Assembly: GCA_024278175.1 (NCBI GenBank)
Contig: JAJRTS010000058.1
Coordinates: forward strand, 8,693-72,692
Source of the DNA: Gemmatimonadales bacterium
GTDB lineage: Bacteria; Gemmatimonadota; Glassbacteria; GWA2-58-10
Reading direction: 5' to 3'
Length of the DNA: 64,000 nucleotides
This document shows, piece by piece, positions 11,469 to 58,816 of this stretch. Numbering within the stretch: position 1 is the first letter of the stretch; each line of letters opens with the position of its first letter. The notes under the pieces are model-generated. The model saw nothing but the letters and a program-made list of their open reading frames with translations, was not told the DNA's origin and made no database searches. The position numbers and the translations under genes were made by a program.

Positions 11469-11699
11469 TAATATAGTGTTTCTCTCAAGTTTTGTCTTTT
11501 TGCAAAGGAAAGAAAGTCCTGAGAATGGTACGGAAAAACTTCCGTTGTTCGTAGAATATTGTAAGGGCGAACCTCGTGTTCGCCCGTCAACCTGTGCACC
11601 TGCTGTATTCTTTGCGGGCGAGGTATGCCTCTCCCCTGCGAGGGAAGGAACGGCCCTTCGAAGGATAATCAAGCGGACAATTGTTTCGAGAACTACTCT

Positions 11700-35211: not shown

Positions 35212-35489
35212 AGTCTCATCCTCCTGTGTGCCCATTCGAGTTTTGTTTTTGTCCTCAGTGGCCGGTTGTAGCAGGTGCGTCTTGACATCCGCACGGGCTA
35301 TCGCTTATCTTAAAGGCGTCCCAGGTCCACAGGACAAAAGCTCGCTAACCCCGTCAGGACCGGAAGGTAGCAGCGGTATGCTTGTAGCTTTTGTCGCTGT
35401 GGGAAGCCTGGGACATTTTTTTTCTCCCCTCCGGCTGGTTCCCCCGGCGCTGGTCCGTGCTATTCCAACCTGAACACGGAGAGCACCGG

Positions 35490-36494
35490 ATGTTCATTGT
35501 CGATTCTTACCTCACCGCCGTTTTCATGTGCATCATCACCATGCTTTGCTGGGGGTCCTGGGCCAATACTCAAAAACTGGCCGGCCGTCACTGGCGTTTT
35601 GAGCTCTTTTACTGGGACTACGCCCTGGGAGTGTTACTTTTTTCGGCTCTGCTGGGGCTTACCCTGGGCAGCACGGGTGCTCAGGGCCGTCCGTTTCTTG
35701 CCGATCTGGCCCAGGCGGGCGCGGGTCCGATCAGCTCGGCCGTGCTGGGCGGCGTGATTTTCAACCTCTCGAACATTCTGCTGGTCGCCGCTATCTCGGT
35801 GGCGGGCATGGCCGTGGCTTTTCCGGTGGGAGTGGGCCTGGCGCTGGTTATCGGAGTTGTCACCAGCTACACTGTCAAGCCCGAGGGCGACCTCTCGACT
35901 CTGTTTATCGGCGTCGGGGTGGTAGTGGTTGCGATCGTGCTCGATGCTGCTGCCTACCGTCGCTCCGGGGGCGGTTCCGCGGGCGGGGCCAGGGGCCTGG
36001 CGCTCTCGGTGGCCGCCGGTGTGCTGATGGGTTTTTTCTACCGCTGGGTGGCGGCGTCGATGGCCACGGATTTCGCCTCGCCCGAGGCGGGACTGCTTAC
36101 GCCATACACGGCCGTGTTTTTCTTCTCGGTGGGTCTGTTCGTCAGCAATTTCCTTTGGAATACGCTGGCGATGAAATTCCCGTTCGCGGGTGAGCCGGTC
36201 AAGGCGGGCGACTATTTCCGCGGCGGCATTGGCGTACACCTGACAGGTATTCTGGGGGGGCTGATCTGGAACCTGGGGATGAGTTTCAGCATAATCGCCA
36301 GCGGTCAGGCGGGATTTGCGATCAGTTACGGTCTGGGCCAGGGAGCTACGATGGTGGCCGCGTTCTGGGGCGTGTTCATCTGGAAGGAGTTCGAGGGTGC
36401 GCCGGGCGGGACCGGCAAGCTGCTGGCGGCGATGTTCGCCTGCTACGCGCTGGGCCTTGTCCTGATTGTATATGCCAGGACGGCCGCACTTTGA
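35490..36494 (+). CDS. GRP/DMT-superfamily sugar transporter-like membrane protein
   Basis: 10-TM two-domain membrane protein with Gly-rich linker; ATG 35490. Confidence 0.55.
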   Translation: MFIVDSYLTAVFMCIITMLCWGSWANTQKLAGRHWRFELFYWDYALGVLLFSALLGLTLGSTGAQGRPFLADLAQAGAGPISSAVLGGVIFNLSNILLVAAISVAGMAVAFPVGVGLALVIGVVTSYTVKPEGDLSTLFIGVGVVVVAIVLDAAAYRRSGGGSAGGARGLALSVAAGVLMGFFYRWVAASMATDFASPEAGLLTPYTAVFFFSVGLFVSNFLWNTLAMKFPFAGEPVKAGDYFRGGIGVHLTGILGGLIWNLGMSFSIIASGQAGFAISYGLGQGATMVAAFWGVFIWKEFEGAPGGTGKLLAAMFACYALGLVLIVYARTAAL

Positions 36495-36577
36495 AGTCAA
36501 CCGGCGCAAATGGAGGCGCGCAATACCGTTCCTGTTACGGGAGATAACACGCTAGCCGGAAAAGCCGCAAAAGGGTT

Positions 36578-37495
36578 TCAATTCAGAAAACGGTAGGCCT
36601 GGTCGATAAACTCGGCGCCCACCACCAGGAACTCCTCCTGGCAGGCGGCCAGTTGCTTAAGCGCGGCGTCACGCTTGCTGATACTGGAATACAGCCCGAA
36701 AATCCCGCTTCCGCTGCCCGAGAGCAGCGCCACGGAGGCGCCCGAGTCGCGCAGCATTTCCTTGGCGTCGCGAAATTCGGGATAGTGCGCGTAGACCACC
36801 GGCTCGAAATCGTTGACCATCGTATCAAGCGGCCCCATCGGCCCGATAATCTCTTCCCAGCGCAACGGTCCCCCGTTGAGTTCCATGGTCTCGGTATTGT
36901 TGCCCTCGGCCTGGGCGTTGTCCAGCGCCCGGTAAGCCCAGGAGGTGGAGATCGGGATATGAGGGATAACCACCACCAGCGGGATTGTTTTTTTTACCGG
37001 CAGCCGCAGCATCCTCTCGCCGATACCCCAGGCCAGGGCGCGCCCGCCGCAGAGCATGAACGGCACGTCCGCGCCGACTTTCGCTGCCAGGGCATAGCGG
37101 GTGCTGTCGCCGCCGGGCAGCGTTCCGAACAGGCGTTCGCAGGCGATCATCACCCCGGCGGCGTCGGCGCTGCCTCCACCGAGCCCGGCGTGGGTGGGGA
37201 TGCCTTTCTCGATCCTGATCTCAACGCCGCGGTTTCTGATCCCCAGGCGCTTCAGGCACAGCCGGGCGGCCTTGTGCGCGGTGTTGTCCTCGTCCACGGG
37301 CACATGGGGCGAGTCGCAGTGGATGATTATCTTGCCGGGGGTGGGGGTGATCGTCAGTGTGTCCGAGAGCGACACGTTCTGGAAGACGGTTTCCAGCGAA
37401 TGGTAGCCGCCCTCCAACAGCCCCAGGATGCGAAGGGACAGGTTGATCTTGGCGAAGACTTCGATCTTGAGAGTCGTGTTGTTGACTTCGGGCAT
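36578..37495 (-). CDS. ispE: 4-diphosphocytidyl-2-C-methyl-D-erythritol kinase
   Basis: GHMP kinase motif PTHAGLGGGSADAAG; KINLSLRI N-terminus; ATG 37495 with AAAGGA RBS. Confidence 0.85.
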   Translation of the reverse strand: MPEVNNTTLKIEVFAKINLSLRILGLLEGGYHSLETVFQNVSLSDTLTITPTPGKIIIHCDSPHVPVDEDNTAHKAARLCLKRLGIRNRGVEIRIEKGIPTHAGLGGGSADAAGVMIACERLFGTLPGGDSTRYALAAKVGADVPFMLCGGRALAWGIGERMLRLPVKKTIPLVVVIPHIPISTSWAYRALDNAQAEGNNTETMELNGGPLRWEEIIGPMGPLDTMVNDFEPVVYAHYPEFRDAKEMLRDSGASVALLSGSGSGIFGLYSSISKRDAALKQLAACQEEFLVVGAEFIDQAYRFLN

Positions 37496-37512
37496 AGACG
37501 GTCCTTTCGGGG

Positions 37513-38568
37513 TCATCCGGCCTGCACGGTGAAAGGGGCCGGATCCGGTTTGTCGTCGATATGCTCGGCGCTTCTGCGCAACTGGCCGAGGGTCATGCCT
37601 TCCCTGCCCATCGCAATCAGTCCGCCCACGGTTACCGGGGCCATCATCAGGAGATGCATCACCACGGCGAACGCCGCCGCATCGTCGTTGGGCAGACCAA
37701 AGCCCGAACTGAGTGAATAGACTATCGCCCAGTGCATCGGTCCCACGAAGGCGGGAGCCGAGGGCAGCGCCACGCCCAGGCCTATCATGCCAAGTGTGAA
37801 AAACGGCGCTATCCATGGCAGCGTGTCGAAACTGAAACCGGCGAATGCCAGCCGGTAGCTGAACACTACCATGCCCCAGTGAACGATGCTCAGGACGCTT
37901 ACCTTGAGCAACACGTCCCCGTTGCGCAGGATTTTCATCCCCTCGCTGAACATGCCCATGAAGCTCTGTACTTTGTCCAGAAACCGGGCGGGCATGAACC
38001 AGCCGGTGAACTTGACCACGGCTTTTTCCGCCGAATGGGGAAAACTCCCCAGTACCATTAATACTATTATAAGAAAAAGAAGCGAGCCTGCAAGGGCATA
38101 ATAAAGCGCGCCGGGGATTTTCAGCATCGTGGGCGCGAAACCCGCGCTGAATGTAAACGGTATCATCAGGCACAACAGGATACTGATAGAGTCGAAAATT
38201 CGCTCGATCAGCAATGAAGCCAGGATGTAGCTGATATGTGCGTCCACCTTGCGGCGGGCGACAATTGCGCGGACGGCCTCGCCGATTCTAAGCGGCAGAA
38301 TGTTGTTGGTGGTAAAGCCGATCAGGTTGGCTGTGGCCAAGCCGTTGGTTGTGGCGTGGTGTTCGGGTTTGTAGAGATATTTCCAGCGCCAGCCCCGCAC
38401 CCACATCACGGCCAGGCTGAGAGCGCTGAATCCGGCCAGCGGCAGGATTCTGATCCGCTCTCCGCTGGTGATTATCTGCCAGGCCCTGTCCAGGTCCACG
38501 CCTTTGAAGGCCACATAGAGGCATACCGAGGTTATCAGCAGCGCGACCAGGTATTTCAATATTTTCAT
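37513..38568 (-). CDS. flippase-like/lysylphosphatidylglycerol-synthase TM-domain (UPF0104) membrane protein
   Basis: 351 aa polytopic protein with LPG_synthase_TM-like topology; upstream of ispE in the same operon. Confidence 0.65.
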   Translation of the reverse strand: MKILKYLVALLITSVCLYVAFKGVDLDRAWQIITSGERIRILPLAGFSALSLAVMWVRGWRWKYLYKPEHHATTNGLATANLIGFTTNNILPLRIGEAVRAIVARRKVDAHISYILASLLIERIFDSISILLCLMIPFTFSAGFAPTMLKIPGALYYALAGSLLFLIIVLMVLGSFPHSAEKAVVKFTGWFMPARFLDKVQSFMGMFSEGMKILRNGDVLLKVSVLSIVHWGMVVFSYRLAFAGFSFDTLPWIAPFFTLGMIGLGVALPSAPAFVGPMHWAIVYSLSSGFGLPNDDAAAFAVVMHLLMMAPVTVGGLIAMGREGMTLGQLRRSAEHIDDKPDPAPFTVQAG

Positions 38569-38709
38569 CTGGAATCCTTTTCACACGGTATCTGATTTTA
38601 ATTGTAATCTATTCTCGTCGCGAATCCCTGTCAAAAGAAAACTTCCGCCATGCCATAATGGCGCACTCCATGCCTTAATGGCCAGAAAAGCATGGGCACG
38701 GGAATTGCG

Positions 38710-38740
38710 CTTGACCAATGCATCAGGATAACTCCCCGAC
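38710..38740 (+). promoter_or_regulatory. candidate sigma32-type heat-shock promoter upstream of dnaK
   Basis: CTTGACC-N17-CCCCGAC resembles CTTGAAA...CCCCATnT; no CIRCE element seen. Confidence 0.25.
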
Positions 38741-38817
38741 AGGAGTTTTCTGATGCAGAATCTTATTTGTTCGTTTGTGTCAATACAGTGATTTAAAGAT
38801 AAAAGGAGCGGGTTATC

Positions 38818-40806
38818 ATGAGTAAGGTTATCGGAATCGATCTGGGTACTACCAACAGTTGTGTGGCGGTGATGGAAGGCGGGGACCCGGTGGTTATCCC
38901 TAACGCCGAGGGCAGCCGCACCACGCCGTCGATTGTCGCGTTCAACAAGGAAAACGAGCGGCTGGTGGGCCAGGTGGCCAAGCGTCAGGCAATCACCAAC
39001 CCCGGCAACACCCTGTTCTCGATCAAGCGCTTCATGGGGCGTAAGACCAGCGAAGTGTCCGACGAGCAGCGCAAGGTGCCCTACGAGATCAAGAGTGGCA
39101 AGAACAACGCGGTGGTGGTGCAGGTGCGAGATCAGGATTACAGTCCGCCCGAGATCAGCGCGATGATTCTGCAGAAGATGAAGCAGACCGCCGAGGATTA
39201 TCTGGGAACCAAGGTGGAAAAAGCCGTGGTCACCGTGCCGGCATATTTCAACGACAGCCAGCGTCAGGCCACCAAGGACGCCGGCAAGATCGCCGGCCTG
39301 GATGTGCTGAGGATTATCAACGAGCCCACGGCGGCCAGCCTGGCCTACGGCCTGGACAAGAAAAAGGACGAGCGGATCGCGGTTTATGATCTGGGCGGCG
39401 GCACGTTCGACGTTTCGGTGCTGGAAATCGGCGACGGAGTGTTCGAGGTCAAGAGCACCAACGGCGATACACATCTGGGCGGTGATGATTTCGACCAGCG
39501 GGTGATCGACTGGCTGGTCGAAGAGTTCAAGAAAGATCAGGGGATCGACCTGAGCAAGGACGCGATGGCCCTGCAGCGGCTCAAGGAAGCCGCCGAAAAA
39601 GCCAAATGCGAGCTGAGCAGCACGCCGCAAACCGATATCAACCTGCCGTTTATCACGGCCGACGGCTCGGGGCCCAAGCACCTGAATGTCACGCTCACCC
39701 GCGCCAGGTTCGAGCAGCTTGTCGACGACCTGGTGCAGCGCACGGTGAAACCCTGCCGTAACGCCCTGAAAGATGCCGGGGTGAGCGCAAGCGATATCGA
39801 CGAGGTGATCCTGGTCGGCGGCTCCACCCGCATCCCCAAGGTGCAGGAAGTGGTCAAGGAGTTTTTCGGCAAGGAACCGCACCGCGGGGTCAACCCGGAC
39901 GAGGTGGTGGCCGTGGGCGCGGCGATTCAGGGCGGTGTGCTGGCCGGTGATGTCAAGGACGTGCTGCTGCTCGATGTGACCCCGTTGAGCCTGGGTATCG
40001 AAACCCTGGGTGGCGTGTTCACCAAGCTGATTGAGCGCAACACCACGATCCCGACCCAGAAGAACGAGATTTTCTCAACCGCCGAGAACAGCCAGACAAC
40101 CGTGGAAATCCACGTGTTGCAGGGCGAGCGTGAGATGGCGGTCGACAACCGCACGATCGGCCGGTTCCAGCTCACGGGCCTGCCGCCCGCCCCGCGCGGC
40201 GTGCCGCAGATCGAGGTGGAGTTCGATATCGACGCCAACGGGATCCTGCACGTGGCCGCCAAGGACAAGGCCACCGGCAAGGAGCAGAAAATCCGCATCG
40301 AGGCCTCCAGCGGCCTCAGCGACAGCGAGATCGAAAATATGGTCAAGGACGCCGAGGTCCACGCCTCCGAGGACAAGCAGAAGCGCGAGGAAGTGGAGAC
40401 CCGCAACCGCGCCGACCAGATGGTGTTCGAGACCGAGAAGCAGCTCGGTGAGCTGGGCGACAAGCTGGACGAGGGTGCCAGGGAAAAACTCCAGGAAAAA
40501 CTGGACGCGGCCAGGGAGGCCCTCAAGGGTAGCGACCTGGCGGCGATCAAGAGCAGTCAGGAAGAGCTGACCGCCATCTGGAACGAAACGGCCCAGCAGC
40601 TCTACCAGACCCAGGCGGCTCAGGAAGCGGCAGCCGGCGGAGCCGAAGGCGCCGCCGCTGCTGCGGCAGGCGCGGCAGGCGCCGCGGGTGGTGGAGAACA
40701 ATCCGCAACCAGCTCCACGGACGGGGATGTGGTCGACGCCGACTACGAGGTGGTGGACGATGATGAGAAGGACAAGGGTAAGGGTAAGGGTAAGGACGGG
40801 AAGTAG
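38818..40806 (+). CDS. dnaK: molecular chaperone DnaK (Hsp70)
   Basis: [18 protein letters not shown]..., full Hsp70 motifs, C-terminal Gly/Ala tail. Confidence 0.95.
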
Positions 40807-40815
40807 GCGGCGGAA

Positions 40816-40851
40816 ACAAGCCCCCGCCCGGTTTTCCGAGCGGGGGCTTGG
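40816..40851 (+). terminator. dnaK terminator hairpin
   Basis: AAGCCCCCGC-ccggttttccga-GCGGGGGCTT. Confidence 0.5.
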
Positions 40852-40935
40852 TCAATATAAATCCGCGGAATTGTAATCTAAGACTAACGTGTTTTCTCAT
40901 TATTGTATTTTTCTATACACTGAGGGGAAAAGGAT

Positions 40936-41259
40936 ATGTCGGGATCATTCTCCATTAGCTTTACGCAATCAGAAGTGCTTCTAATCCTTAAAGTATTGAA
41001 GGATTTCAGCTTGGAAGGAAGAGGAAGTATCGATAGTGCATATATTGAAGAAGATGTCTTGGAGAAGTATTTCGATCAATCGGATAAATTCACAGTATTT
41101 AGGAAAATTGTTGAGCCTAAGCAATTATCTAACAAATTACTCAAATTAACGCCTGCAGAGTCCGAGAGACTGGTAGAATTGAGCAATGAATACTCAAAGC
41201 TTTCTGATGGAGTAGACAAGTTAGCTTGGCGGAAAGAGCATTTTAATATTATTGACTAG
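40936..41259 (+). CDS. hypothetical 107-aa protein encoded in an AT-rich islet
   Basis: ORF with GAGGGGAAAAGGA RBS; ~37% GC versus ~65% surroundings; no recognisable domain. Confidence 0.5.
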   Translation: MSGSFSISFTQSEVLLILKVLKDFSLEGRGSIDSAYIEEDVLEKYFDQSDKFTVFRKIVEPKQLSNKLLKLTPAESERLVELSNEYSKLSDGVDKLAWRKEHFNIID

Positions 41260-41362
41260 GATCAGCTAAATAAGTATAACTATTCACTATCTCCATCAAT
41301 ATGGTAGCTATCATAAGAATTGCCGTAGGGCTGCAAAAAACTCTCCGCCTCCCTCCAATCCA

Positions 41363-41392
41363 TTGACACATCACCCCATCCCCTGCTACCAT
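41363..41392 (+). promoter_or_regulatory. sigma70-like promoter TTGACA-N18-TACCAT for the DUF5916 gene
   Basis: Sequence motifs only. Confidence 0.35.
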
Positions 41393-41439
41393 ACACCCAT
41401 CGCTCCCGTAACCCGTTCCATGCAAAAGAGGAAAGCCAT

Positions 41440-43566
41440 TTGCGCCGTTTTTTTATTCTCCCCCTGCTTCTTCTGCTCACAAGCCTGCTTGTCGCCCCAC
41501 CCGCACTGACCGCCCGGCAGTCAGCCCGGCGGACGGCAAAAAATCCCACCCGCTCGATTACCGCTGTCGAAGCCGAGACCCCGCCCACAATCGACGGCCG
41601 TCTGGATGACTCCATCTGGCAGGCGGCTGACTGGCAGGAAAATTTCAGCCAGTTCAAGCCGGACCCCGGCGGAGTCCCTCGCGCCGCCACCCGCGTGGCC
41701 GTGGCCTACGACAACGAGCACATCTACGTGGCTTTCAGGTGTTTTAACCCCACCGGCCCATCGGCCAACAGCACAATAACCGCCCGCGATGGCAACATGG
41801 ACCAGGACAACGCTGTAACGCTCTACCTGGACACCTATTACACCCGCCGCGACTGCTACTATTTCTCCACCAACTCGCTGGGCACCCAGGTGGACGGCCG
41901 GATCGGGCAGGATGGGGCGGCCAACGACAAGAAGTGGGATTGCCCCTGGACCGTGGCCAGCCGGGAGGACAGCGCGGGCTGGAGTTGCGAGATGAAAATC
42001 CCCGTGTCAGAGATGCGTATCCCCAGCGGCGAGGGCCGCGTGTGGGGGATCAATTTCCGCCGCAACTACCCGGAATTTTTCGAGACCAGCTTCTGGCAGC
42101 ACCGGGATGTGGCCTGGCGGATTTCCCAGTCCGGCGACCTGCTGGGCCTGCCCGCGTTCGACAAGCTGTTCTCGGCCACGCTCTACCCGTACGTGGTAGG
42201 CCTGGACTCCGACCCGCCCTCCGCCGGCCGCCGTACCCTGCTCTCATCCGGCGGCAGAGAGCTTGTGGGCGGCGCCGACCTTCGCCTGAAGCTGGGCAAC
42301 TCCGTGGACGGCAATATCACCTATAATCCCGATTTCGCCACTGTCGAGGCCGACCTGACGATTATCAACCTGACTCGCTACGAGACATTTTTCCCGGAGA
42401 AAAGGCTCTATTTCCTCGAGGGCGCCGAACTGTTCAGCCATCCGATCCGCCTGTTTTACAGCCGGCGGATCGGTGATATCGACTGGGGCCTTAAAACCAA
42501 CGGCCGCCTCGGCAAGTTCAACTATGCAGTGCTGGCGGCCGATGAGCGCACGACCGGCGATGACCCGGCGGCCCATACGGAGGCGTTCCGGCTCCAGCGC
42601 GACATTTTCGGTTCCTCGAATATCGGCTTCACCGCTGTCAGCCGCACCTGGAACGGCGGCTATGCCCGTGTGCTCAGCAGCGACGCCACCCTGAACTTCA
42701 GCCCGCGCACCAGAATGCGCGGTCAGTTAGTGGGCAGCTTCCCTTCCGGGGGCGGGGAAGCAACCGGAGCCGGGATGGTCGAGTTGACCCACGACACGGG
42801 TTTGCGCAGCTACACCTTGTCCTACAGGAACCTTGAGCCGGGCTTTATGGACAATGTCAACAGGGTCGGGTTCATCCAGGACGACAACCGCCACGACCTC
42901 TCGGCCCGGGCCGGGGGAGAGATCTGGATCAACCGGGGGATTCTGGATAAACTGAATTACAACCAGAACAACAACGTGGTCTGGGGCTATGATGGCGCGC
43001 TGCGGCGAGTGCAGGTGGGCGGCTGGGTAGGTGTGACTTTCCTGGGCAACCTGATGGTCGGTTTTTCCAAAAACTACGAAACAGAGCTTTTCGAAAAACG
43101 TCTCCGCAACTCGACCCGGCTTGTGGAAGGCGGCTGGAACCAACAAAGCTGGAACAATGTGGGACTGCTTCATGTCTGGGGACGCAATTTCGATCGCGAT
43201 TTTCACCGTACCCGGTTACGGGGTGCTTTCAAACCGCTGGATAATCTTTCACTCAGCGCGGGTGTTACCCGGTTGCGGTTCTCGCCCGACACCACCGGCC
43301 AGGGGACCGATCTCTATAACCTGAGCGCCGATTACAATTTTACCCCCGATCTCTGGCTGCGTCTTACCAGCCAGTACAACTCCAACAACAACAGGCTCTA
43401 TTTCTACGGCCTGTTCGGCTGGCGGTTCAGCCCGCCGTTCGGCGCGCTGTACGTGGCCTACACCGCCGACCGGTTCGAAATGCTCAGCAGCGAACTGAAC
43501 AGGATAACAGGCCGCCGCGACCGGGCGCTGTTTATCAAACTCACCGTGCCCCTCTCGATTTATTGA
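41440..43566 (+). CDS. secreted DUF5916/carbohydrate-binding family 9-like domain protein
   Basis: Signal peptide; CBM9-like N-terminal part then beta-rich DUF5916-like region; TTG start with AGAGGAAAG RBS. Confidence 0.65.
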   Translation: MRRFFILPLLLLLTSLLVAPPALTARQSARRTAKNPTRSITAVEAETPPTIDGRLDDSIWQAADWQENFSQFKPDPGGVPRAATRVAVAYDNEHIYVAFRCFNPTGPSANSTITARDGNMDQDNAVTLYLDTYYTRRDCYYFSTNSLGTQVDGRIGQDGAANDKKWDCPWTVASREDSAGWSCEMKIPVSEMRIPSGEGRVWGINFRRNYPEFFETSFWQHRDVAWRISQSGDLLGLPAFDKLFSATLYPYVVGLDSDPPSAGRRTLLSSGGRELVGGADLRLKLGNSVDGNITYNPDFATVEADLTIINLTRYETFFPEKRLYFLEGAELFSHPIRLFYSRRIGDIDWGLKTNGRLGKFNYAVLAADERTTGDDPAAHTEAFRLQRDIFGSSNIGFTAVSRTWNGGYARVLSSDATLNFSPRTRMRGQLVGSFPSGGGEATGAGMVELTHDTGLRSYTLSYRNLEPGFMDNVNRVGFIQDDNRHDLSARAGGEIWINRGILDKLNYNQNNNVVWGYDGALRRVQVGGWVGVTFLGNLMVGFSKNYETELFEKRLRNSTRLVEGGWNQQSWNNVGLLHVWGRNFDRDFHRTRLRGAFKPLDNLSLSAGVTRLRFSPDTTGQGTDLYNLSADYNFTPDLWLRLTSQYNSNNNRLYFYGLFGWRFSPPFGALYVAYTADRFEMLSSELNRITGRRDRALFIKLTVPLSIY

Positions 43567-43632
43567 GCCTTTTCTGCTATAATCACAGGAACATCAGCCC
43601 TGAATGCCGGGATATTAACCAAGGAGCACCGG

Positions 43633-44646
43633 ATGAAAACGCTGTTACCCCTGTGTCTGCTCGTCGCTCTGCTGGCCGCGGCGCCGCTTGCGGCCAGCTC
43701 GGCCGCCTGGCCGGATTACCGCCTTCGCGGCGCGAATATCGTCACCCGGATTACCCAAGACGACATTGACCACTTCGTCAACGACTGGGGCGGTAACTCG
43801 GTGCGGATTCTGGTAAACAATCTGGTGCCGCCCCCGCCCGCCTGGCCGGACCCGGAAAAAATGGCCGCGCTGTTCCGCACGCTCGATATCTGCCTGGACG
43901 CCGGGCTGTACACGATCCTCTCGTTCAGCGCGGCGTTCGAGGACAACAACGCCTTTTTTAGCGACGAAGCCTACATGGCCGCCTACCTGGATTGCTGGCG
44001 CACGGTGGTGGGCCGCTACGCCGCTGATCCCCGCCCGGTGGCCTGGGACCTGATGAACGAGCCTCATGATAGTTTGGCGAACACTCGTTGGTTGCCGTTT
44101 GCAAAAAAACTCACCGCCGCGGTGCGCGAACTCGACACCCTGCACACGATCGTAATCGAACCGCCGGGCTGGGGTTGGCCCTACGGTTTCGAGCACATGC
44201 GGCCCACGGGCGATAAGAATACGGTCTACAGTTTTCACTTCTACGGACCGATGGATTTCACCCATCAGCGCAACGGCGGGATGCTCAAGGCCACGGAAAA
44301 ACAGTGGCTGGAGCGCGAGTACCCCGGCCATATCCAGGGCGAGTTCTGGGACAGGGCCACAATCCGCCGTCACCTTCAGCCCTCCCTGGACTGGCGCGAC
44401 AAGTACGGGGTCAGGCTCTGGTGCGGAGAGTTCGGCTGCACGCGCTGGGCCGTGGGCGCGGACCAGTGGACAAGGGACATGATCTCGATAGTGGAAGAAG
44501 AGAAGTTGGGTTGGTCGTGGTACGCCTACCGCGAGTGGTACCCGATGGATATCGAGATGGACCCGGCCGCGCGCCTGGAGCGTACCGAACGCACGGAAAC
44601 CGCTCTGGTGAGATATTTCAAGGAACTGTTCCGGCACAAGGACTGA
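43633..44646 (+). CDS. glycoside hydrolase family 5 (cellulase-like) secreted enzyme
   Basis: Signal peptide; NEP catalytic motif (WDLMNEPH), GEFG nucleophile region. Confidence 0.8.
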   Translation: MKTLLPLCLLVALLAAAPLAASSAAWPDYRLRGANIVTRITQDDIDHFVNDWGGNSVRILVNNLVPPPPAWPDPEKMAALFRTLDICLDAGLYTILSFSAAFEDNNAFFSDEAYMAAYLDCWRTVVGRYAADPRPVAWDLMNEPHDSLANTRWLPFAKKLTAAVRELDTLHTIVIEPPGWGWPYGFEHMRPTGDKNTVYSFHFYGPMDFTHQRNGGMLKATEKQWLEREYPGHIQGEFWDRATIRRHLQPSLDWRDKYGVRLWCGEFGCTRWAVGADQWTRDMISIVEEEKLGWSWYAYREWYPMDIEMDPAARLERTERTETALVRYFKELFRHKD

Positions 44647-44648
44647 TA

Positions 44649-45188
44649 ATGGTGGGAAAGCAATCAGTGGGAAAAGGCGGGATAGTGGTCAATCTCGGCT
44701 GCGGCAACACTAAGCAGCCGGGCCAGATCGGCCTGGATCGCTACCGGTCCACCCAGGCCGACCTGCTGGCTGAGCTTGCCGAGGGCCTGCCGCTGGCCGA
44801 TAGCAGCGTGGACGCCGTAGTGGCCGAGCATCTTCTGGAGCATGTGCCTGACCTGGTGCGGCTGATGGAGGAGATCTATCGCGTGCTGGTTCCCGGCGGA
44901 GTGCTGAGTGTCGAGGTACCCTATTTTGCCCATCCCGATGCTTTCCGCGACCCCACGCACGTCCGGTTTTTTACCTTCGGCAGTCTCGATTATTTTGTCG
45001 ATGGGATGAAACCAGCGTCATATACGGATGTAAGATTTAACTACATGAGCAGGGAACTTGGTTTCGGCAAGGGATTTCGCGCCGGAGCGGGCCGGGTGCT
45101 GGCGAGGCTGAACCCTCACGGTTACGAGAAATACTGGGCCCGGTCGTTTCCGGCCAGGGTGCTGCGCGCGGAACTGGAAAAAGTTTAG
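44649..45188 (+). CDS. class I SAM-dependent methyltransferase (Methyltransf_11-like)
   Basis: VNLGCG SAM motif, LPLADSSVDAVVAEH, VLVPGG; ATG 44649 right after the GH5 stop. Confidence 0.75.
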   Translation: MVGKQSVGKGGIVVNLGCGNTKQPGQIGLDRYRSTQADLLAELAEGLPLADSSVDAVVAEHLLEHVPDLVRLMEEIYRVLVPGGVLSVEVPYFAHPDAFRDPTHVRFFTFGSLDYFVDGMKPASYTDVRFNYMSRELGFGKGFRAGAGRVLARLNPHGYEKYWARSFPARVLRAELEKV

Positions 45189-45499
45189 GGACTAACTTGC
45201 AATCCGCCCGGATGGTCAATATCGTAAATAGTAGTGCGGATGAAGCAGTTACCCCGGAAAAAGTTGACTAACTAACAAGCGGGCACTATTTTTTTAGCTG
45301 TAGGAATAGCGGTTATCTAGCGGTTTAACCGAATCTTTTTCCGTAACTGGCGCTGGTATCGTCCATTGGCTTATTCATCGGGCGCAGTTCAGGTTCCGGG
45401 CGCCGGTTTCCTTTGACCAGTCACGCCAACCGTGTCACACCCAGCGGTCCAGCATCCGGGCCGGGGGAAGTATTAATTTTTCTTCAGGAGTTAAGTACT

Positions 45500-45871
45500 A
45501 TGCCTCGCGGAAAAGTCAAATGGTTTAACGACGCCAAAGGCTACGGATTCATCGAGCAGGAATCGGGTAGCGACATTTTTGTTCATTACACTGCAATTAC
45601 CATGGAGGGTTTCAAGACCCTGGCCGAGAACCAGGCTGTCGAGTACGAGGTGGTGGAGGGCCCGCGCGGTCCCCAGGCCGCCAACGTGTCCGCGGCCGAG
45701 GACGATGCCGACGGCGCAGAGTCCGCCGATGACGTCGGACAGTCCGCTGACGAGTCTGAAGCCGAAGCCGAAGAAGATGATGATCAGGACGACGGCGAAG
45801 AAGCAGAAGCAGAAGAAGTAGAAGAAGCAACAGCAGAAGAAGAAGAAGAAGCAACAGAAGAAGAAAGCTAA
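45500..45871 (+). CDS. cold-shock-domain protein with ~57-aa poly-acidic C-terminal tail
   Basis: [20 protein letters not shown]...RNP1/RNP2 motifs, then E/D/A-rich tail; long 5'UTR; CAGGAG RBS. Confidence 0.85.
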
Positions 45872-57349: not shown

Positions 57350-57865
57350 TTATTTGCACAGCTTGCCGAAGCGCACCAGTTGCTCGTCCGGCGCATCGGC
57401 GTCCCACTGCGCCGCTACCTCGTCGATAATCATCCCGCACTTCACCAGGATGGCCTGCTGAGCCTTGTCCAGTTCGGGGAGCTCCGCGTCCCATACCGGC
57501 TCCAGGTAGTTGTCCACCATCCTGAGCTGGCCCTCGCCCAGCATCCTGCGCAGGATAAACGTCAGCCGGCCGCTGGCCAGAGACCCCTTGCGCGCGTTGA
57601 ACTTGAACCCGGGCATCTCCACCGCGTGCCTGGCGGCCACCCGCCCGGCCACAAAAATAAAGTAGTAGGTCTCCGAGGCGCTGACCCTGCCGCCGCCTCT
57701 GCCCTCCGAGAGCGTACGCAGCGCCAGACTGACCACATGCACCATCAGGCTGCGGACCCTGCGCGCCTTGGCCAGACGCGTTTTTCTGGCCTTGATCACC
57801 AACTGGCCGCTCACTGCCAGTGAGCCGCCGGCCAGCAGGGAAAGTAACAATTTGCCGAATCTCAT
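57350..57865 (-). CDS. hypothetical secreted protein
   Basis: Signal peptide MRFGKLLLSLLAGGSLAVSG; no recognised domain. Confidence 0.35.
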   Translation of the reverse strand: MRFGKLLLSLLAGGSLAVSGQLVIKARKTRLAKARRVRSLMVHVVSLALRTLSEGRGGGRVSASETYYFIFVAGRVAARHAVEMPGFKFNARKGSLASGRLTFILRRMLGEGQLRMVDNYLEPVWDAELPELDKAQQAILVKCGMIIDEVAAQWDADAPDEQLVRFGKLCK

Positions 57866-58174
57866 CCCGTACCTCAATTGAATGACAGCTATTGAGTTTC
57901 ACAGCGCACCACATCCGCCTTAAAATACTAATAAGCTGCTTTCCTGTAAATATATCTATCGTTTCATTAATGCTGGACACAACCGGGGAAATAAGTGTAG
58001 AATAATGTTGGCAGGCGAGATACAGGATGCGTCGCGGTTGGTTATCTCCCCATGAAACAGAAAAATTTCTGAGAATAGACTGCCCCCGCGGCAAGCTGCG
58101 GGAAGTTTTTTTAATTAAATCAGAAGGTCTCTTTTTTAGTGGTTGCACGGATCATTAATATTCGACGGAGTTCG

Positions 58175-58816
58175 ATGAAAATGGAAAACATTCTGGTCCA
58201 CGCGGTAACCGTATTTACGGGGTTCTTCGCCATCATGAACCCTATCGCCAACGTTCCGATATTCCTTAGCCTTACAGCGTCCGATGACAAACAGACGAAG
58301 AAAGCCGTGGCTTTACGATCATTGCTGCTGGCGTTATTGATCATTACTTTATTTTCCGTTGCAGGAAAGGTGGTTTTCGAGCTATTTGGAATTACGTTGC
58401 CCTCTTTTCGGATTACCGGTGGGCTGCTCGTCTTTCTTATCGGCTTTCATATGCTGCAGGGCAATCAATCAAGCGTTCATCAGCTTAACGAAAAAGATAA
58501 CCAGCAGTGTCGTGAAGCCGCACTCAGTGTCGCCACCTTCCCCTTCGCGATGCCGATCCTTGCCGGTCCGGGTACAATCGCGACGGCAATGATTTTCGCA
58601 GCGAAGGGCGGTCTTTGGGGGATGGTGGTGACCATTGCTGCATTCGCCGTACTCTGTGCAATCACCTATTTGTTTTTTATTTTCGGTGATAAGTTTGTGG
58701 CCTTCATCGGAGTGGGCGCCCTGGGAGTAATCACGCGTATTATGGGATTAGTCCTCGCTGTGGTTGGGACACAAATGGTGATCGAAGGAGTGCGGGGCGT
58801 GCTGAAGCTTGCCTAG
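58175..58816 (+). CDS. marC: MarC-family (UPF0056) membrane protein
   Basis: MarC-like 6-TM layout; stop TAG whose G is the first base of the repeat. Confidence 0.75.
   Translation: MKMENILVHAVTVFTGFFAIMNPIANVPIFLSLTASDDKQTKKAVALRSLLLALLIITLFSVAGKVVFELFGITLPSFRITGGLLVFLIGFHMLQGNQSSVHQLNEKDNQQCREAALSVATFPFAMPILAGPGTIATAMIFAAKGGLWGMVVTIAAFAVLCAITYLFFIFGDKFVAFIGVGALGVITRIMGLVLAVVGTQMVIEGVRGVLKLA

What the first reader, a model, noticed from the sequence alone, without database searches (positions are those of the whole stretch)
40807..41439. AT-rich islet (~37% GC in a ~65% GC genome) directly after dnaK, carrying an orphan 107-aa ORF where grpE/dnaJ would be expected
dnaK ends at 40806 with a strong terminator hairpin. 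The next ~600 bp are compositionally foreign. They contain a 107-aa ORF with a good RBS and no recognisable domain (MSGSFSISFTQSEVLLILKVLKDFSLEGRGSID…). A short convergent 27-codon ORF (MDWREAESFLQPYGNSYDSYHIDGDSE) also sits in the islet, as does an outward TTGACA-N18-TACCAT promoter for the downstream CBM9/DUF5916 gene. No grpE or dnaJ flanks dnaK. A low-GC insertion next to a highly conserved chaperone gene suggests horizontally acquired cargo. Candidates are a small co-chaperone-like or regulator-like protein, an immunity/antitoxin-like protein, or a novel small protein.
Basis: seen in the sequence. Interest (0 to 1): 0.6.

Follow-up and report, generated by a model that had tools for sequence, protein, structure and literature searches.

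The report
Foreign orphan gene behind dnaK
A half-kilobase piece of foreign, AT-rich DNA carrying one real but functionally unknown small gene sits at a spot behind the chaperone gene dnaK where related uncultured bacteria hold other small imported genes, several of them anti-phage or nuclease genes.

Summary
The window is 60% GC, not 65%. The AT-rich core (40850-~41330) is 36% GC, the lowest in the window. The 107-aa ORF (40936-41259) has GC3 of 0.39, against 0.82 for dnaK.

The ORF is a real gene. One homologue exists among about 15 billion proteins (105 aa, 44% identity, E 1.4e-18). The pair shows a protein-level selection signature. No known domain or fold matches.

The organism is a Candidatus Glassbacteria (Gemmatimonadota) MAG. 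Its closest relative (L001, about 91% nucleotide identity) is colinear on both sides and lacks the islet. Only window 40815-41350 fails to align.

In other relatives the same position, directly after the dnaK hairpin, holds different low-GC cargo:
- an AbiTii/AbiTi abortive-infection gene plus a 96-aa ORF;
- PIN-like genes;
- an HNH nuclease;
- a mini CRISPR-like array.

This is a small accessory or defence-type hotspot, and ORF107 is its occupant here.

The TTGACA-N18-TACCAT promoter is native DNA conserved in relatives, not islet DNA. Absence of grpE/dnaJ next to dnaK is lineage-wide. A co-chaperone role has no support.

ORF107's function is inferred only from context. Its sole homologue sits just upstream of an HNH nuclease gene.

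The parts
38818..40806 (+). dnaK, the conserved left anchor of the variable site
   Evidence: Pfam HSP70, E 1.2e-273. It is 73-97% identical to Glassbacteria and Gemmatimonadota DnaK proteins.
40817..40850 (+). dnaK 3' hairpin, 'type B' allele, with no U-tract after it
   Evidence: 15-nt arms, 93% complementary, 4-nt loop. Folds at -37.6 kcal/mol, z -4.45. Shared only with L085. Unique within the window. Not called as a terminator.
40815..41350 (.). Segment with no counterpart in the closest relative L001, replacing L001 5329-5602 (536 bp against 274 bp)
   Evidence: blastn of window against L001 gives 94.7% identity up to 40814 and 87.5% from 41351, with nothing between.
40850..41330 (.). Low-GC foreign core (36% GC)
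   Evidence: It is the lowest-GC stretch of the window. No flanking direct repeats or terminal inverted repeats were found.
40936..41259 (+). ORF107, a real protein-coding gene of a two-member orphan family. Predicted all-helical, pI 5.1.
   Evidence: Homologue P0122: 44% identity over 100 aa, E 1.4e-18 in an exhaustive phmmer search and 2e-29 by BLASTP. Nucleotide identity by codon position is 0.62/0.76/0.47, and 21 of 46 identical residues use different codons. AF2 pLDDT 65-68, six helices. No family hits.
41280..41363 (-).
   Evidence: It is an internal ATG of the antisense ORF 41280-41690. Its start codon overlaps the conserved -35 hexamer.
41351..41439 (+). Native upstream region of the DUF5916 gene, with promoter-like TTGACA (41363-41368) and TACCAT (41387-41392)
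   Evidence: Promoter scan scores 10 of 12. Conserved in L001 (90%) and L002, both of which lack ORF107.
41440..43566 (+). DUF5916/CBM9 gene, the conserved right anchor in the closer relatives
   Evidence: Pfam DUF5916 (3.3e-15) and CBM9_1 (8.8e-06). Synteny seen in L001, L002 and the P0006 contig.

Best explanation
SHOWN: The islet is about 0.5 kb of foreign, un-ameliorated low-GC DNA. It has replaced the native spacer between the dnaK 3' hairpin and the promoter of the DUF5916 gene. In Candidatus Glassbacteria this site is a recurrent landing place for very small low-GC cargo of 0.5-1.9 kb, carrying one or two genes. In sister genomes the cargo is an AbiTii/AbiTi abortive-infection gene, PIN-like genes, an HNH nuclease or a mini CRISPR-like array. 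In this genome the cargo is a single, genuinely protein-coding orphan gene, ORF107.

INFERRED:
(a) Turnover of the cargo most likely goes through homologous recombination anchored in the conserved flanks. There is no recombinase, target-site duplication or terminal repeat.
(b) ORF107 is probably transcribed at least partly by read-through from dnaK. The hairpin lacks a U-tract, no consensus promoter precedes the ORF, and no terminator follows it.
(c) ORF107 most likely works as a small helical partner protein (inhibitor or regulator) of a nuclease-type defence or toxin module. Its only homologue sits 93 bp upstream of, and co-oriented with, a 132-aa HNH endonuclease gene inside a shared low-GC segment. 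Here it would be an orphan partner without its nuclease.

My confidence is about 0.9 for 'horizontally acquired cargo in a hotspot', about 0.9 for 'real gene', and about 0.25 for the HNH-partner role.
For: FOREIGN ORIGIN AND SHARP BOUNDARIES
- GC and GC3 values.
- L001 is colinear at 94.7% and 87.5% on the two sides. Only window 40815-41350 fails to align.

HOTSPOT
- The left flank (IspE, LPG synthase, dnaK) is the same in all eight related Glassbacteria contexts.
- L002 holds AbiTii (Pfam 1e-41; PADLOC AbiTii 2.2e-46 plus AbiTi 1.1e-08) and a 96-aa ORF, at about 37% GC.
- L085 holds a 270-aa PIN-like ORF at about 33% GC.
- L115 holds a PIN-like 292-aa ORF, whose N-terminus is homologous to the L085 protein (4e-09), plus an HNH 274-aa gene, at about 30% GC.
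- L116-118 hold a 271-aa ORF and three 36-nt repeats with 30-nt spacers.
- Cargo starts right after the hairpin in each occupied genome.

REAL GENE
-.

NUCLEASE LINK
- In L003 the homologue and the HNH gene share one strand, 93 bp apart, inside a 37% GC segment flanked by 45-49% GC.
- The HNH assignment comes from PHROG families (1e-07, 3e-06).
- ORF107 is acidic (pI 5.1) and the HNH protein is basic (pI 9.2).

READ-THROUGH
-.

PRECEDENT
- Core-gene-flanked defence hotspots are known. In P. aeruginosa, 29% (cDHS1) and 47% (cDHS2) of sites have no detectable mobile gene (PMC10250203).
Against: - ORF107 matches no defence, toxin-antitoxin or immunity family and no solved or viral fold.
- The structure model is only of moderate confidence.
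- The nuclease link rests on a single 5.5-kb contig. It could reflect a free-standing homing HNH that landed beside the gene.
- The homologue is not acidic (pI 7.85).
- No nuclease partner exists next to ORF107, and no HNH relative occurs in the window.
- Two relatives (L001, L086) have no low-GC cargo at the site, and L114 has ordinary-GC genes there. 'Defence hotspot' is thus a tendency seen in a handful of MAGs.
- Expression is untested.
- The two hairpin alleles do not follow dnaK relatedness. Plain flank-guided recombination does not specifically predict that.
Confidence: 0.55

Rival explanations
1. The islet is a decaying remnant of a phage or other mobile element. ORF107 would be a leftover mobile-element gene (a moron or early gene) with no role for the host. 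The HNH neighbour of its homologue would be a homing endonuclease that inserted beside it by chance.
For: - Low GC, a single gene and an orphan family.
- The islet is tiny and has neither a promoter nor a terminator of its own.
- Small free-standing HNH genes are typical of phage genomes, and the L003 HNH matches only PHROG HNH families.
Against: - Neither family member matches phage records, plasmid records or IMG/VR contigs.
- The L003 neighbours also find nothing viral.
- The ORF is intact, with start and stop conserved against a 44%-identical homologue, and it shows a purifying-selection pattern.
- No integrase, att site or structural gene is present in the window or in L003.
Confidence: 0.2
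2. ORF107 is a DnaK-linked factor (co-chaperone, regulator or client adaptor), placed behind dnaK so that it is co-expressed under heat shock.
For: - It lies directly behind dnaK, on the same strand.
- The hairpin has no U-tract, so read-through is plausible.
Against: - It is absent from the closest relative and from all eight related dnaK loci.
- There is no J-domain or GrpE similarity.
- Its composition is foreign.
- The only homologue lies next to an HNH gene, not a chaperone gene.
- Unrelated cargo occupies the same slot elsewhere.
Confidence: 0.04
3. The islet is a non-coding AT-rich spacer and the 107-codon ORF is a chance reading frame.
For: - No domain or fold match.
- Only two family members.
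- 12 of 5000 shuffles reach the ORF's length.
Against: - A full-length homologue of nearly equal length has an aligned start codon and E 1.4e-18 against 1.8 billion representative proteins.
- Identity by codon position follows position 2 > 1 > 3, and 21 of 46 identical residues differ synonymously.
- No Rfam family reaches threshold.
Confidence: 0.03
4. The islet is an assembly artefact, a chimeric join in a metagenome-assembled genome.
For: - The source is a MAG contig of 90,490 bp.
- The composition jump is sharp.
Against: - Both flanks continue in the same order and orientation as in L001. A chimera would not put 0.5 kb back into perfect synteny.
- Independent assemblies of four other lineages show low-GC cargo at exactly this position.
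Confidence: 0.02

Closest known systems
Core-gene-flanked defence hotspots (cDHS1/cDHS2 of Pseudomonas aeruginosa, PMC10250203; E. coli defence-island hotspots, PMC10121019)
   Same: - Conserved core genes bracket a site whose content differs between related genomes.
- Occupants include recognised anti-phage genes, here AbiTii/AbiTi, HNH, PIN-like genes and a CRISPR-like array in relatives.
- Many occupants have unknown function.
- A substantial share of such sites carry no detectable mobility gene (29% and 47%).
   Different: - The scale is much smaller: 0.5-1.9 kb with one or two genes, against medians of 6-26 kb.
- The anchor is the dnaK terminator, not a tRNA or tmRNA.
- The evidence comes from nine MAG or metagenome contexts (window included) of an uncultured lineage, not hundreds of isolates.
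- The occupant in this window matches no known defence family.
AbiT-type abortive infection genes (Pfam PF18864 AbiTii; PADLOC AbiTii/AbiTi)
   Same: An AbiTii/AbiTi-type gene occupies the same slot, with the same low GC, in relative L002.
   Different: ORF107 has no similarity to it. BLASTP E is 0.8, the hhalign probability is 1.6%, and there is no Pfam or PADLOC hit.
Small inhibitor partners of nucleases: type II antitoxins and HNH-toxin immunity proteins such as colicin E9/Im9 (from general knowledge)
   Same: - It is a small (about 105 aa) helical protein.
- In L003 it is encoded next to, and co-oriented with, an HNH nuclease gene.
- The window copy is acidic.
- Orphan immunity or antitoxin genes without their toxin are a known phenomenon.
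   Different: - No sequence or fold relation to any antitoxin or immunity family.
- The homologue is not acidic.
- The 93-bp gap and gene order are not diagnostic.
- No partner is present in the window.
- Neutralisation is untested.
Site-specific insertion just downstream of a conserved housekeeping gene's terminator, e.g. Tn7 at attTn7 behind glmS (from general knowledge)
   Same: Cargo begins within a few nucleotides of the 3' foot of the terminator hairpin of a highly conserved gene, in several lineages.
   Different: No transposase or Tns genes, no element ends, and no target-site duplication. Cargo is replaced rather than added: 536 bp against 274 bp in L001.

Membership tests
Core-gene-flanked accessory/defence hotspot | The same conserved core genes flank the site in related genomes | tested here: met
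   IspE, LPG synthase and dnaK lie on the left in all eight related Glassbacteria contexts. DUF5916 and GH5 lie on the right in L001, L002 and the P0006 contig.
Core-gene-flanked accessory/defence hotspot | The content of the site varies between related genomes | tested here: met
   Six different contents appear among eight contexts with DNA (window included): ORF107; none, with REP-like palindromes; AbiT plus a 96-aa ORF; PIN-like; PIN-like plus HNH; a 271-aa ORF plus a CRISPR-like array.
Core-gene-flanked accessory/defence hotspot | Occupants include recognised defence systems | tested here: inconclusive
   Met for relative L002 (PADLOC AbiTii 2.2e-46) and suggestive for L115 and L116 (HNH, CRISPR-like array). 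Not met for the occupant in this window, which has no PADLOC hit at E <= 10.
Mobile element (IS, MITE, transposon, integrative element) | Terminal inverted repeats, target-site duplication, or a recombinase/transposase gene | tested here: not met
   No flanking direct or inverted repeats bound 40815-41350. The only ORF has no family hit. There is no tRNA in the window.
Integron gene cassette | An attC-like imperfect palindrome at the 3' end of the cassette | tested here: not met
   The 3' region 41255-41350 folds no better than shuffles (z +1.22).
Integron gene cassette | A nearby integron integrase (intI) | not tested
   No integrase was seen among the genes called around dnaK in relatives. 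The window was not specifically screened for intI.
DnaK co-chaperones (DnaJ / GrpE) | A J-domain with an HPD motif, or a GrpE fold, with conserved association with dnaK | tested here: not met
   No Pfam DnaJ or GrpE hit at E <= 1. There is no HPD tripeptide in the sequence. The gene is absent from all related dnaK loci.
Type II antitoxin / nuclease immunity protein | Adjacent cognate toxin gene | tested here: inconclusive
   Not met in the window: there is no neighbouring gene inside the islet and no HNH relative in the window. It is met for the only homologue, which has an HNH gene 93 bp downstream.
Type II antitoxin / nuclease immunity protein | Membership of a recognised antitoxin or immunity fold or family | tested here: not met
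   No Pfam, NCBIfam or PADLOC hit. The PDB profile search gives only noise. Foldseek against PDB and BFVD gives E >= 1.
Type II antitoxin / nuclease immunity protein | Binds and neutralises the toxin | not testable with these tools
   This needs co-expression or binding experiments, or multimer structure prediction.
AbiTii (PF18864) | Significant match to the family profile | tested here: not met
   No Pfam or PADLOC hit. hhalign against the L002 AbiTii protein gives probability 1.6%.

The most novel reading that the evidence does not exclude
ORF107 and its homologue found a new family of small helical partner proteins of HNH nucleases, a previously undescribed two-gene toxin-antitoxin or defence module. 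In addition, the dnaK 3' hairpin in Glassbacteria would serve as a hairpin-directed landing pad where such mini-cassettes are swapped without any resident recombinase.
Probability: 0.12. Interest if true: 0.55.

Novelty: new member of a known kind. Interest (0 to 1): 0.35.

Why it matters
If the reading is right, the slot behind dnaK is a compact, easily recognised place to look for new anti-phage or toxin-type genes in an uncultured lineage, Glassbacteria within Gemmatimonadota, whose immune repertoire is essentially unstudied. Each occupant is only one or two genes, so candidate systems come pre-delimited. ORF107 itself is a bona fide orphan protein family with two members among about 15 billion proteins. 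Its only contextual clue points to HNH nucleases, which makes it a cheap candidate for a toxicity and neutralisation test. By itself, an orphan gene in a variable intergenic hotspot is a common kind of finding.

Tried and rejected
FUNCTION OF ORF107 (nothing usable)
- Pfam, PHROG, PADLOC and NCBIfam scans of ORF107.
- For the homologue, only noise: PADLOC BilC at 15 bits and Pfam PheRS_DBD3 at E 0.24.

FAMILY SIZE
- Word-indexed search, exhaustive phmmer and a profile of the two members found two true members only.
- The third phmmer hit, P0123, is a YSIRK/Rib-repeat surface protein that matches through a 36-residue motif repeated three times. I treated it as spurious.
- Back-translated scans of IMG/VR and JGI metagenomes found nothing.
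- tblastn of both members against phage and plasmid records found no match.

STRUCTURE
- AF2 with one and with two sequences gave pLDDT 65-68.
- Foldseek against PDB and BFVD gave no hit with E < 1.
- The PDB sequence-profile search gave noise.

RELATIONSHIP TO OTHER HOTSPOT CARGO
- BLASTP and hhalign found none.

MORE EXAMPLES OF THE HOTSPOT
- A metagenome scan with the conserved promoter 18-mer returned 26 chance hits without dnaK or DUF5916.
- The genome-contig scan with the DUF5916 protein returned only distant paralogues or orthologues without dnaK upstream.

OTHER CHECKS
- The hairpin is not a dispersed repeat.
- REP-like palindromes seen in relatives' spacers are absent from the islet.
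- Rfam searches of the islet found nothing above threshold.
- L003 neighbours were searched in PDB, NCBIfam, phage records and IMG/VR. Nothing beyond the HNH assignment emerged.
Full report
WHAT IS IN THE SEQUENCE

dnaK occupies 38818-40806 (Pfam HSP70, E 1.2e-273). It is followed by an inverted repeat at 40817-40850 with 15-nt arms and a 4-nt loop. This folds strongly: -37.6 kcal/mol in a 71-nt context, z -4.45. The sequence after it is GGTCAATAT rather than a U-tract, and the terminator scan did not call it.

GC then collapses. The window as a whole is 60.1% GC. Over 300-bp windows the mean is 0.600 with sd 0.058. The stretch 40850-41330 is 36.0% and holds the window minimum of 0.34.

The 107-aa ORF is at 40936-41259. 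Its GC3 is 0.39, against 0.82 for dnaK and 0.78 for the downstream DUF5916 gene. The genome figure of 65% is too high, and the boundaries need adjusting.

IS ORF107 A GENE?

It has no hit in Pfam, PHROGs or PADLOC, and only noise in NCBIfam. The word-indexed search of 5.8 billion clusters found only the protein itself. The exhaustive phmmer search of 1.84 billion representatives found one true relative, P0122 (105 aa, E 1.4e-18). BLASTP gives 44% identity and 69% positives over 100 residues, E 2e-29.

The two proteins align from their start methionines to within three codons of their stops. At the DNA level, identity by codon position is 0.62/0.76/0.47, and 21 of the 46 identical residues are encoded by different codons. 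That is the pattern expected for selection on a protein. A 107-codon ATG-ORF arises in only 12 of 5000 shuffles of the islet.

A third hit, P0123, is a YSIRK/Rib-repeat surface protein that matches through a short thrice-repeated motif. I regard it as spurious. A profile of the two members, scans of IMG/VR and JGI metagenomes, and tblastn against phage and plasmid records found no further member.

AF2 predicts six helices with moderate confidence: pLDDT 68 with one sequence and 65 with two, pTM about 0.6. Foldseek against PDB and BFVD, and a PDB profile search, give nothing significant. ORF107 is a real gene of a two-member orphan family.

WHOSE GENOME, AND WHAT DO RELATIVES HAVE HERE?

The best DnaK matches are Candidatus Glassbacteria and Gemmatimonadota MAG proteins. 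I recovered eight related dnaK contexts in Glassbacteria. In every one, dnaK stands alone downstream of a divergent LPG-synthase/IspE pair, without grpE or dnaJ. A more distant Gemmatimonadales dnaK (L087) has different neighbours and also lacks grpE and dnaJ. A solitary dnaK is therefore a lineage trait, unrelated to the islet.

The closest relative, L001 (GCA_054474455.1; DnaK 97% identical), aligns colinearly with the window. Identity is 94.7% from 35465 to 40814 and 87.5% from 41351 to 45851. The only piece that does not align is window 40815-41350 (536 bp), which faces L001 5329-5602 (274 bp). L001's spacer is about 55% GC and contains GC-rich REP-like palindromes but no ORF.

Homology on the right resumes in the stretch that contains TTGACA-N18-TACCAT. 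This stretch is also conserved in L002. The 27-codon convergent ORF starts inside that conserved -35 hexamer and is an internal ATG of an antisense ORF. Nothing supports it as a gene.

THE SITE IS A HOTSPOT

| Genome | DnaK identity | Content directly after the dnaK hairpin |
|---|---|---|
| L002 | 88% | 1.3-kb segment at about 37% GC with a 300-aa AbiTii/AbiTi protein (Pfam AbiTii 1e-41; PADLOC AbiTii 2.2e-46 and AbiTi 1.1e-08) and a 96-aa ORF; then REP-like elements and the conserved DUF5916 promoter |
| L085 | 88% | 0.85 kb at about 33% GC with a 270-aa ORF whose N-terminus (MIYFDTSVW...) is PIN-like |
| L115 | 80%; contig named after Glassbacteria GWA2_58_10 | 1.9 kb at about 30% GC with a 292-aa protein (faint Pfam PIN; N-terminus homologous to the L085 protein, 4e-09) and a convergent 274-aa HNH protein |
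| L116-118 | 80% | A reduced-GC stretch with a 271-aa ORF, then three identical 36-nt repeats separated by 30-nt unique spacers, i.e. a mini CRISPR-like array |
| L086 | 91% | No low-GC cargo in the 318 bp before the contig ends |
| L114 | 84% | Ordinary-GC genes |
| P0006 contig | 90% | An 834-bp gap with only a 48-aa call; no DNA available |

None of these occupants resembles ORF107.

The pattern is conserved core flanks, different small un-ameliorated low-GC cargo in different lineages, and several occupants of the abortive-infection, nuclease or CRISPR kind. This matches the known concept of core-gene-flanked defence or accessory hotspots (PMC10250203, PMC10121019), though at a much smaller scale. 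In P. aeruginosa, 29% of cDHS1 and 47% of cDHS2 sites likewise have no detectable mobility gene.

HOW DID IT GET THERE?

There is no integrase, transposase, tRNA, target-site duplication or terminal inverted repeat. The islet's 3' end has no attC-like structure. Relative to L001 the spacer was replaced, not simply interrupted. I therefore infer flank-guided homologous exchange of alternative spacer alleles, with dnaK as an unusually well-conserved anchor.

One detail does not follow from this simply. The window's hairpin (type B) is shared only with the distant L085, whereas the much closer L001 has type A, as do L086 and L002. In all occupied genomes the cargo begins at the foot of the hairpin. 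A hairpin-directed insertion mechanism is not excluded, but there is no positive evidence for it.

WHAT DOES ORF107 DO?

Homology and fold give nothing, so only context is left. The single homologue lies on a 5.5-kb Logan contig (L003). There it is followed after 93 bp, on the same strand, by a 132-aa protein with a C-x2-C...DH...C-x2-C-N HNH motif (read from the translation). That protein matches PHROG HNH endonuclease families at 1e-07 and 3e-06.

The pair occupies a 37% GC segment between flanks of 45-49% GC. In that genome too they look like an imported two-gene unit, with the same base composition as the window's islet. ORF107 is acidic (pI 5.1) and the HNH protein is basic (pI 9.2), but the homologue itself is near neutral (pI 7.85).

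My best guess, at about 0.25, is that the family encodes a small helical partner (inhibitor or regulator) of an HNH nuclease, and that the window copy is an orphan without its nuclease. The main alternative, at about 0.2, is that the islet is a leftover of a mobile element and the HNH adjacency is the accident of a homing endonuclease. The remaining probability goes to 'some other accessory function'.

A DnaK-related role is very unlikely. There is no J-domain or GrpE similarity, the gene is absent from the closest relative, and unrelated cargo sits in the same slot elsewhere.

Expression is untested. The missing U-tract, the lack of a consensus promoter upstream of the ORF, and the absence of a terminator downstream make read-through from dnaK the simplest inferred route.

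VERDICT

Its central interpretation, horizontally acquired cargo, is supported. Three side claims are not supported: that grpE/dnaJ would be expected here, that the promoter lies in the islet, and that the 27-codon ORF is meaningful.

The finding is a new member of a known kind: a small accessory or defence-type hotspot between core genes, occupied here by a genuine orphan gene of unknown function. It is of moderate-to-low general interest. It has some practical value as a pre-delimited place to look for new small defence or toxin modules in an unstudied lineage.

Noticed in passing
L116 8312-8480 (also L117, L118): About 1.3 kb downstream of dnaK in a Glassbacteria relative lie three identical 36-nt repeats (GCTGGGGCTTGTAGAGTTTTTCAAGTTGAATTAAAT) at a 66-nt period with 30-nt unique spacers, i.e. 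a mini CRISPR-like array. No cas genes are visible because the contigs end about 130 bp later.
   Followed up: partly
L001 5480-5560; L002 9400-9530; L085 8890-9270; L086 6900-7000: GC-rich REP-like palindromic elements (e.g. CCCCTCTAtCAAGAGGGG...GGGGTGTGT and GGGCGAACACgaGGTTCGCCCCTAC) fill the dnaK-downstream spacers of relatives. They are absent from the window's islet. One copy of the second type occurs at window 11563-11585.
   Followed up: partly
window 40817-40850 versus L001 5340-5377, L085 7996-8027: There are two alleles of the dnaK terminator hairpin, and they do not follow dnaK relatedness. The window shares its allele with the distant L085, not with the close L001. The window allele lacks the U-tract that the other allele has.
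   Followed up: partly
window 57800-58500: This is the second-lowest GC stretch of the window (43-46%). It covers the upstream region and start of a 225-aa multi-pass membrane ORF at 58139-58816.
   Followed up: no
L003 4227-5315 and 2639-3982: The contig carrying the only ORF107 homologue also encodes a 362-aa protein with a sub-threshold OGG-like glycosylase N-terminal match (Pfam 1.1e-05) and a 447-aa protein with no known domain. The neighbourhood may itself be a defence-type island.
   Followed up: partly
L085 8055-8867 and L115 7003-7881: Two hotspot occupants share a PIN-like N-terminus ([IL]xxDT[SN]VW...; BLASTP 4e-09). Otherwise they match no Pfam, PADLOC or NCBIfam model above threshold. 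They may form a separate uncharacterised family recurring at this site.
   Followed up: partly
window 35319-35416: A bacterial small SRP RNA gene (Rfam RF00169, 60.7 bits) lies upstream of the IspE/LPG-synthase/dnaK block. It is conserved at the same relative position in L085.
   Followed up: no
L087 5779-8199: A Gemmatimonadales MAG encodes an 806-aa DnaK with a duplicated HSP70 segment: tblastn matches query residues 3-331 and 150-596 in tandem. This is either a real internal duplication or an assembly artefact.
   Followed up: no
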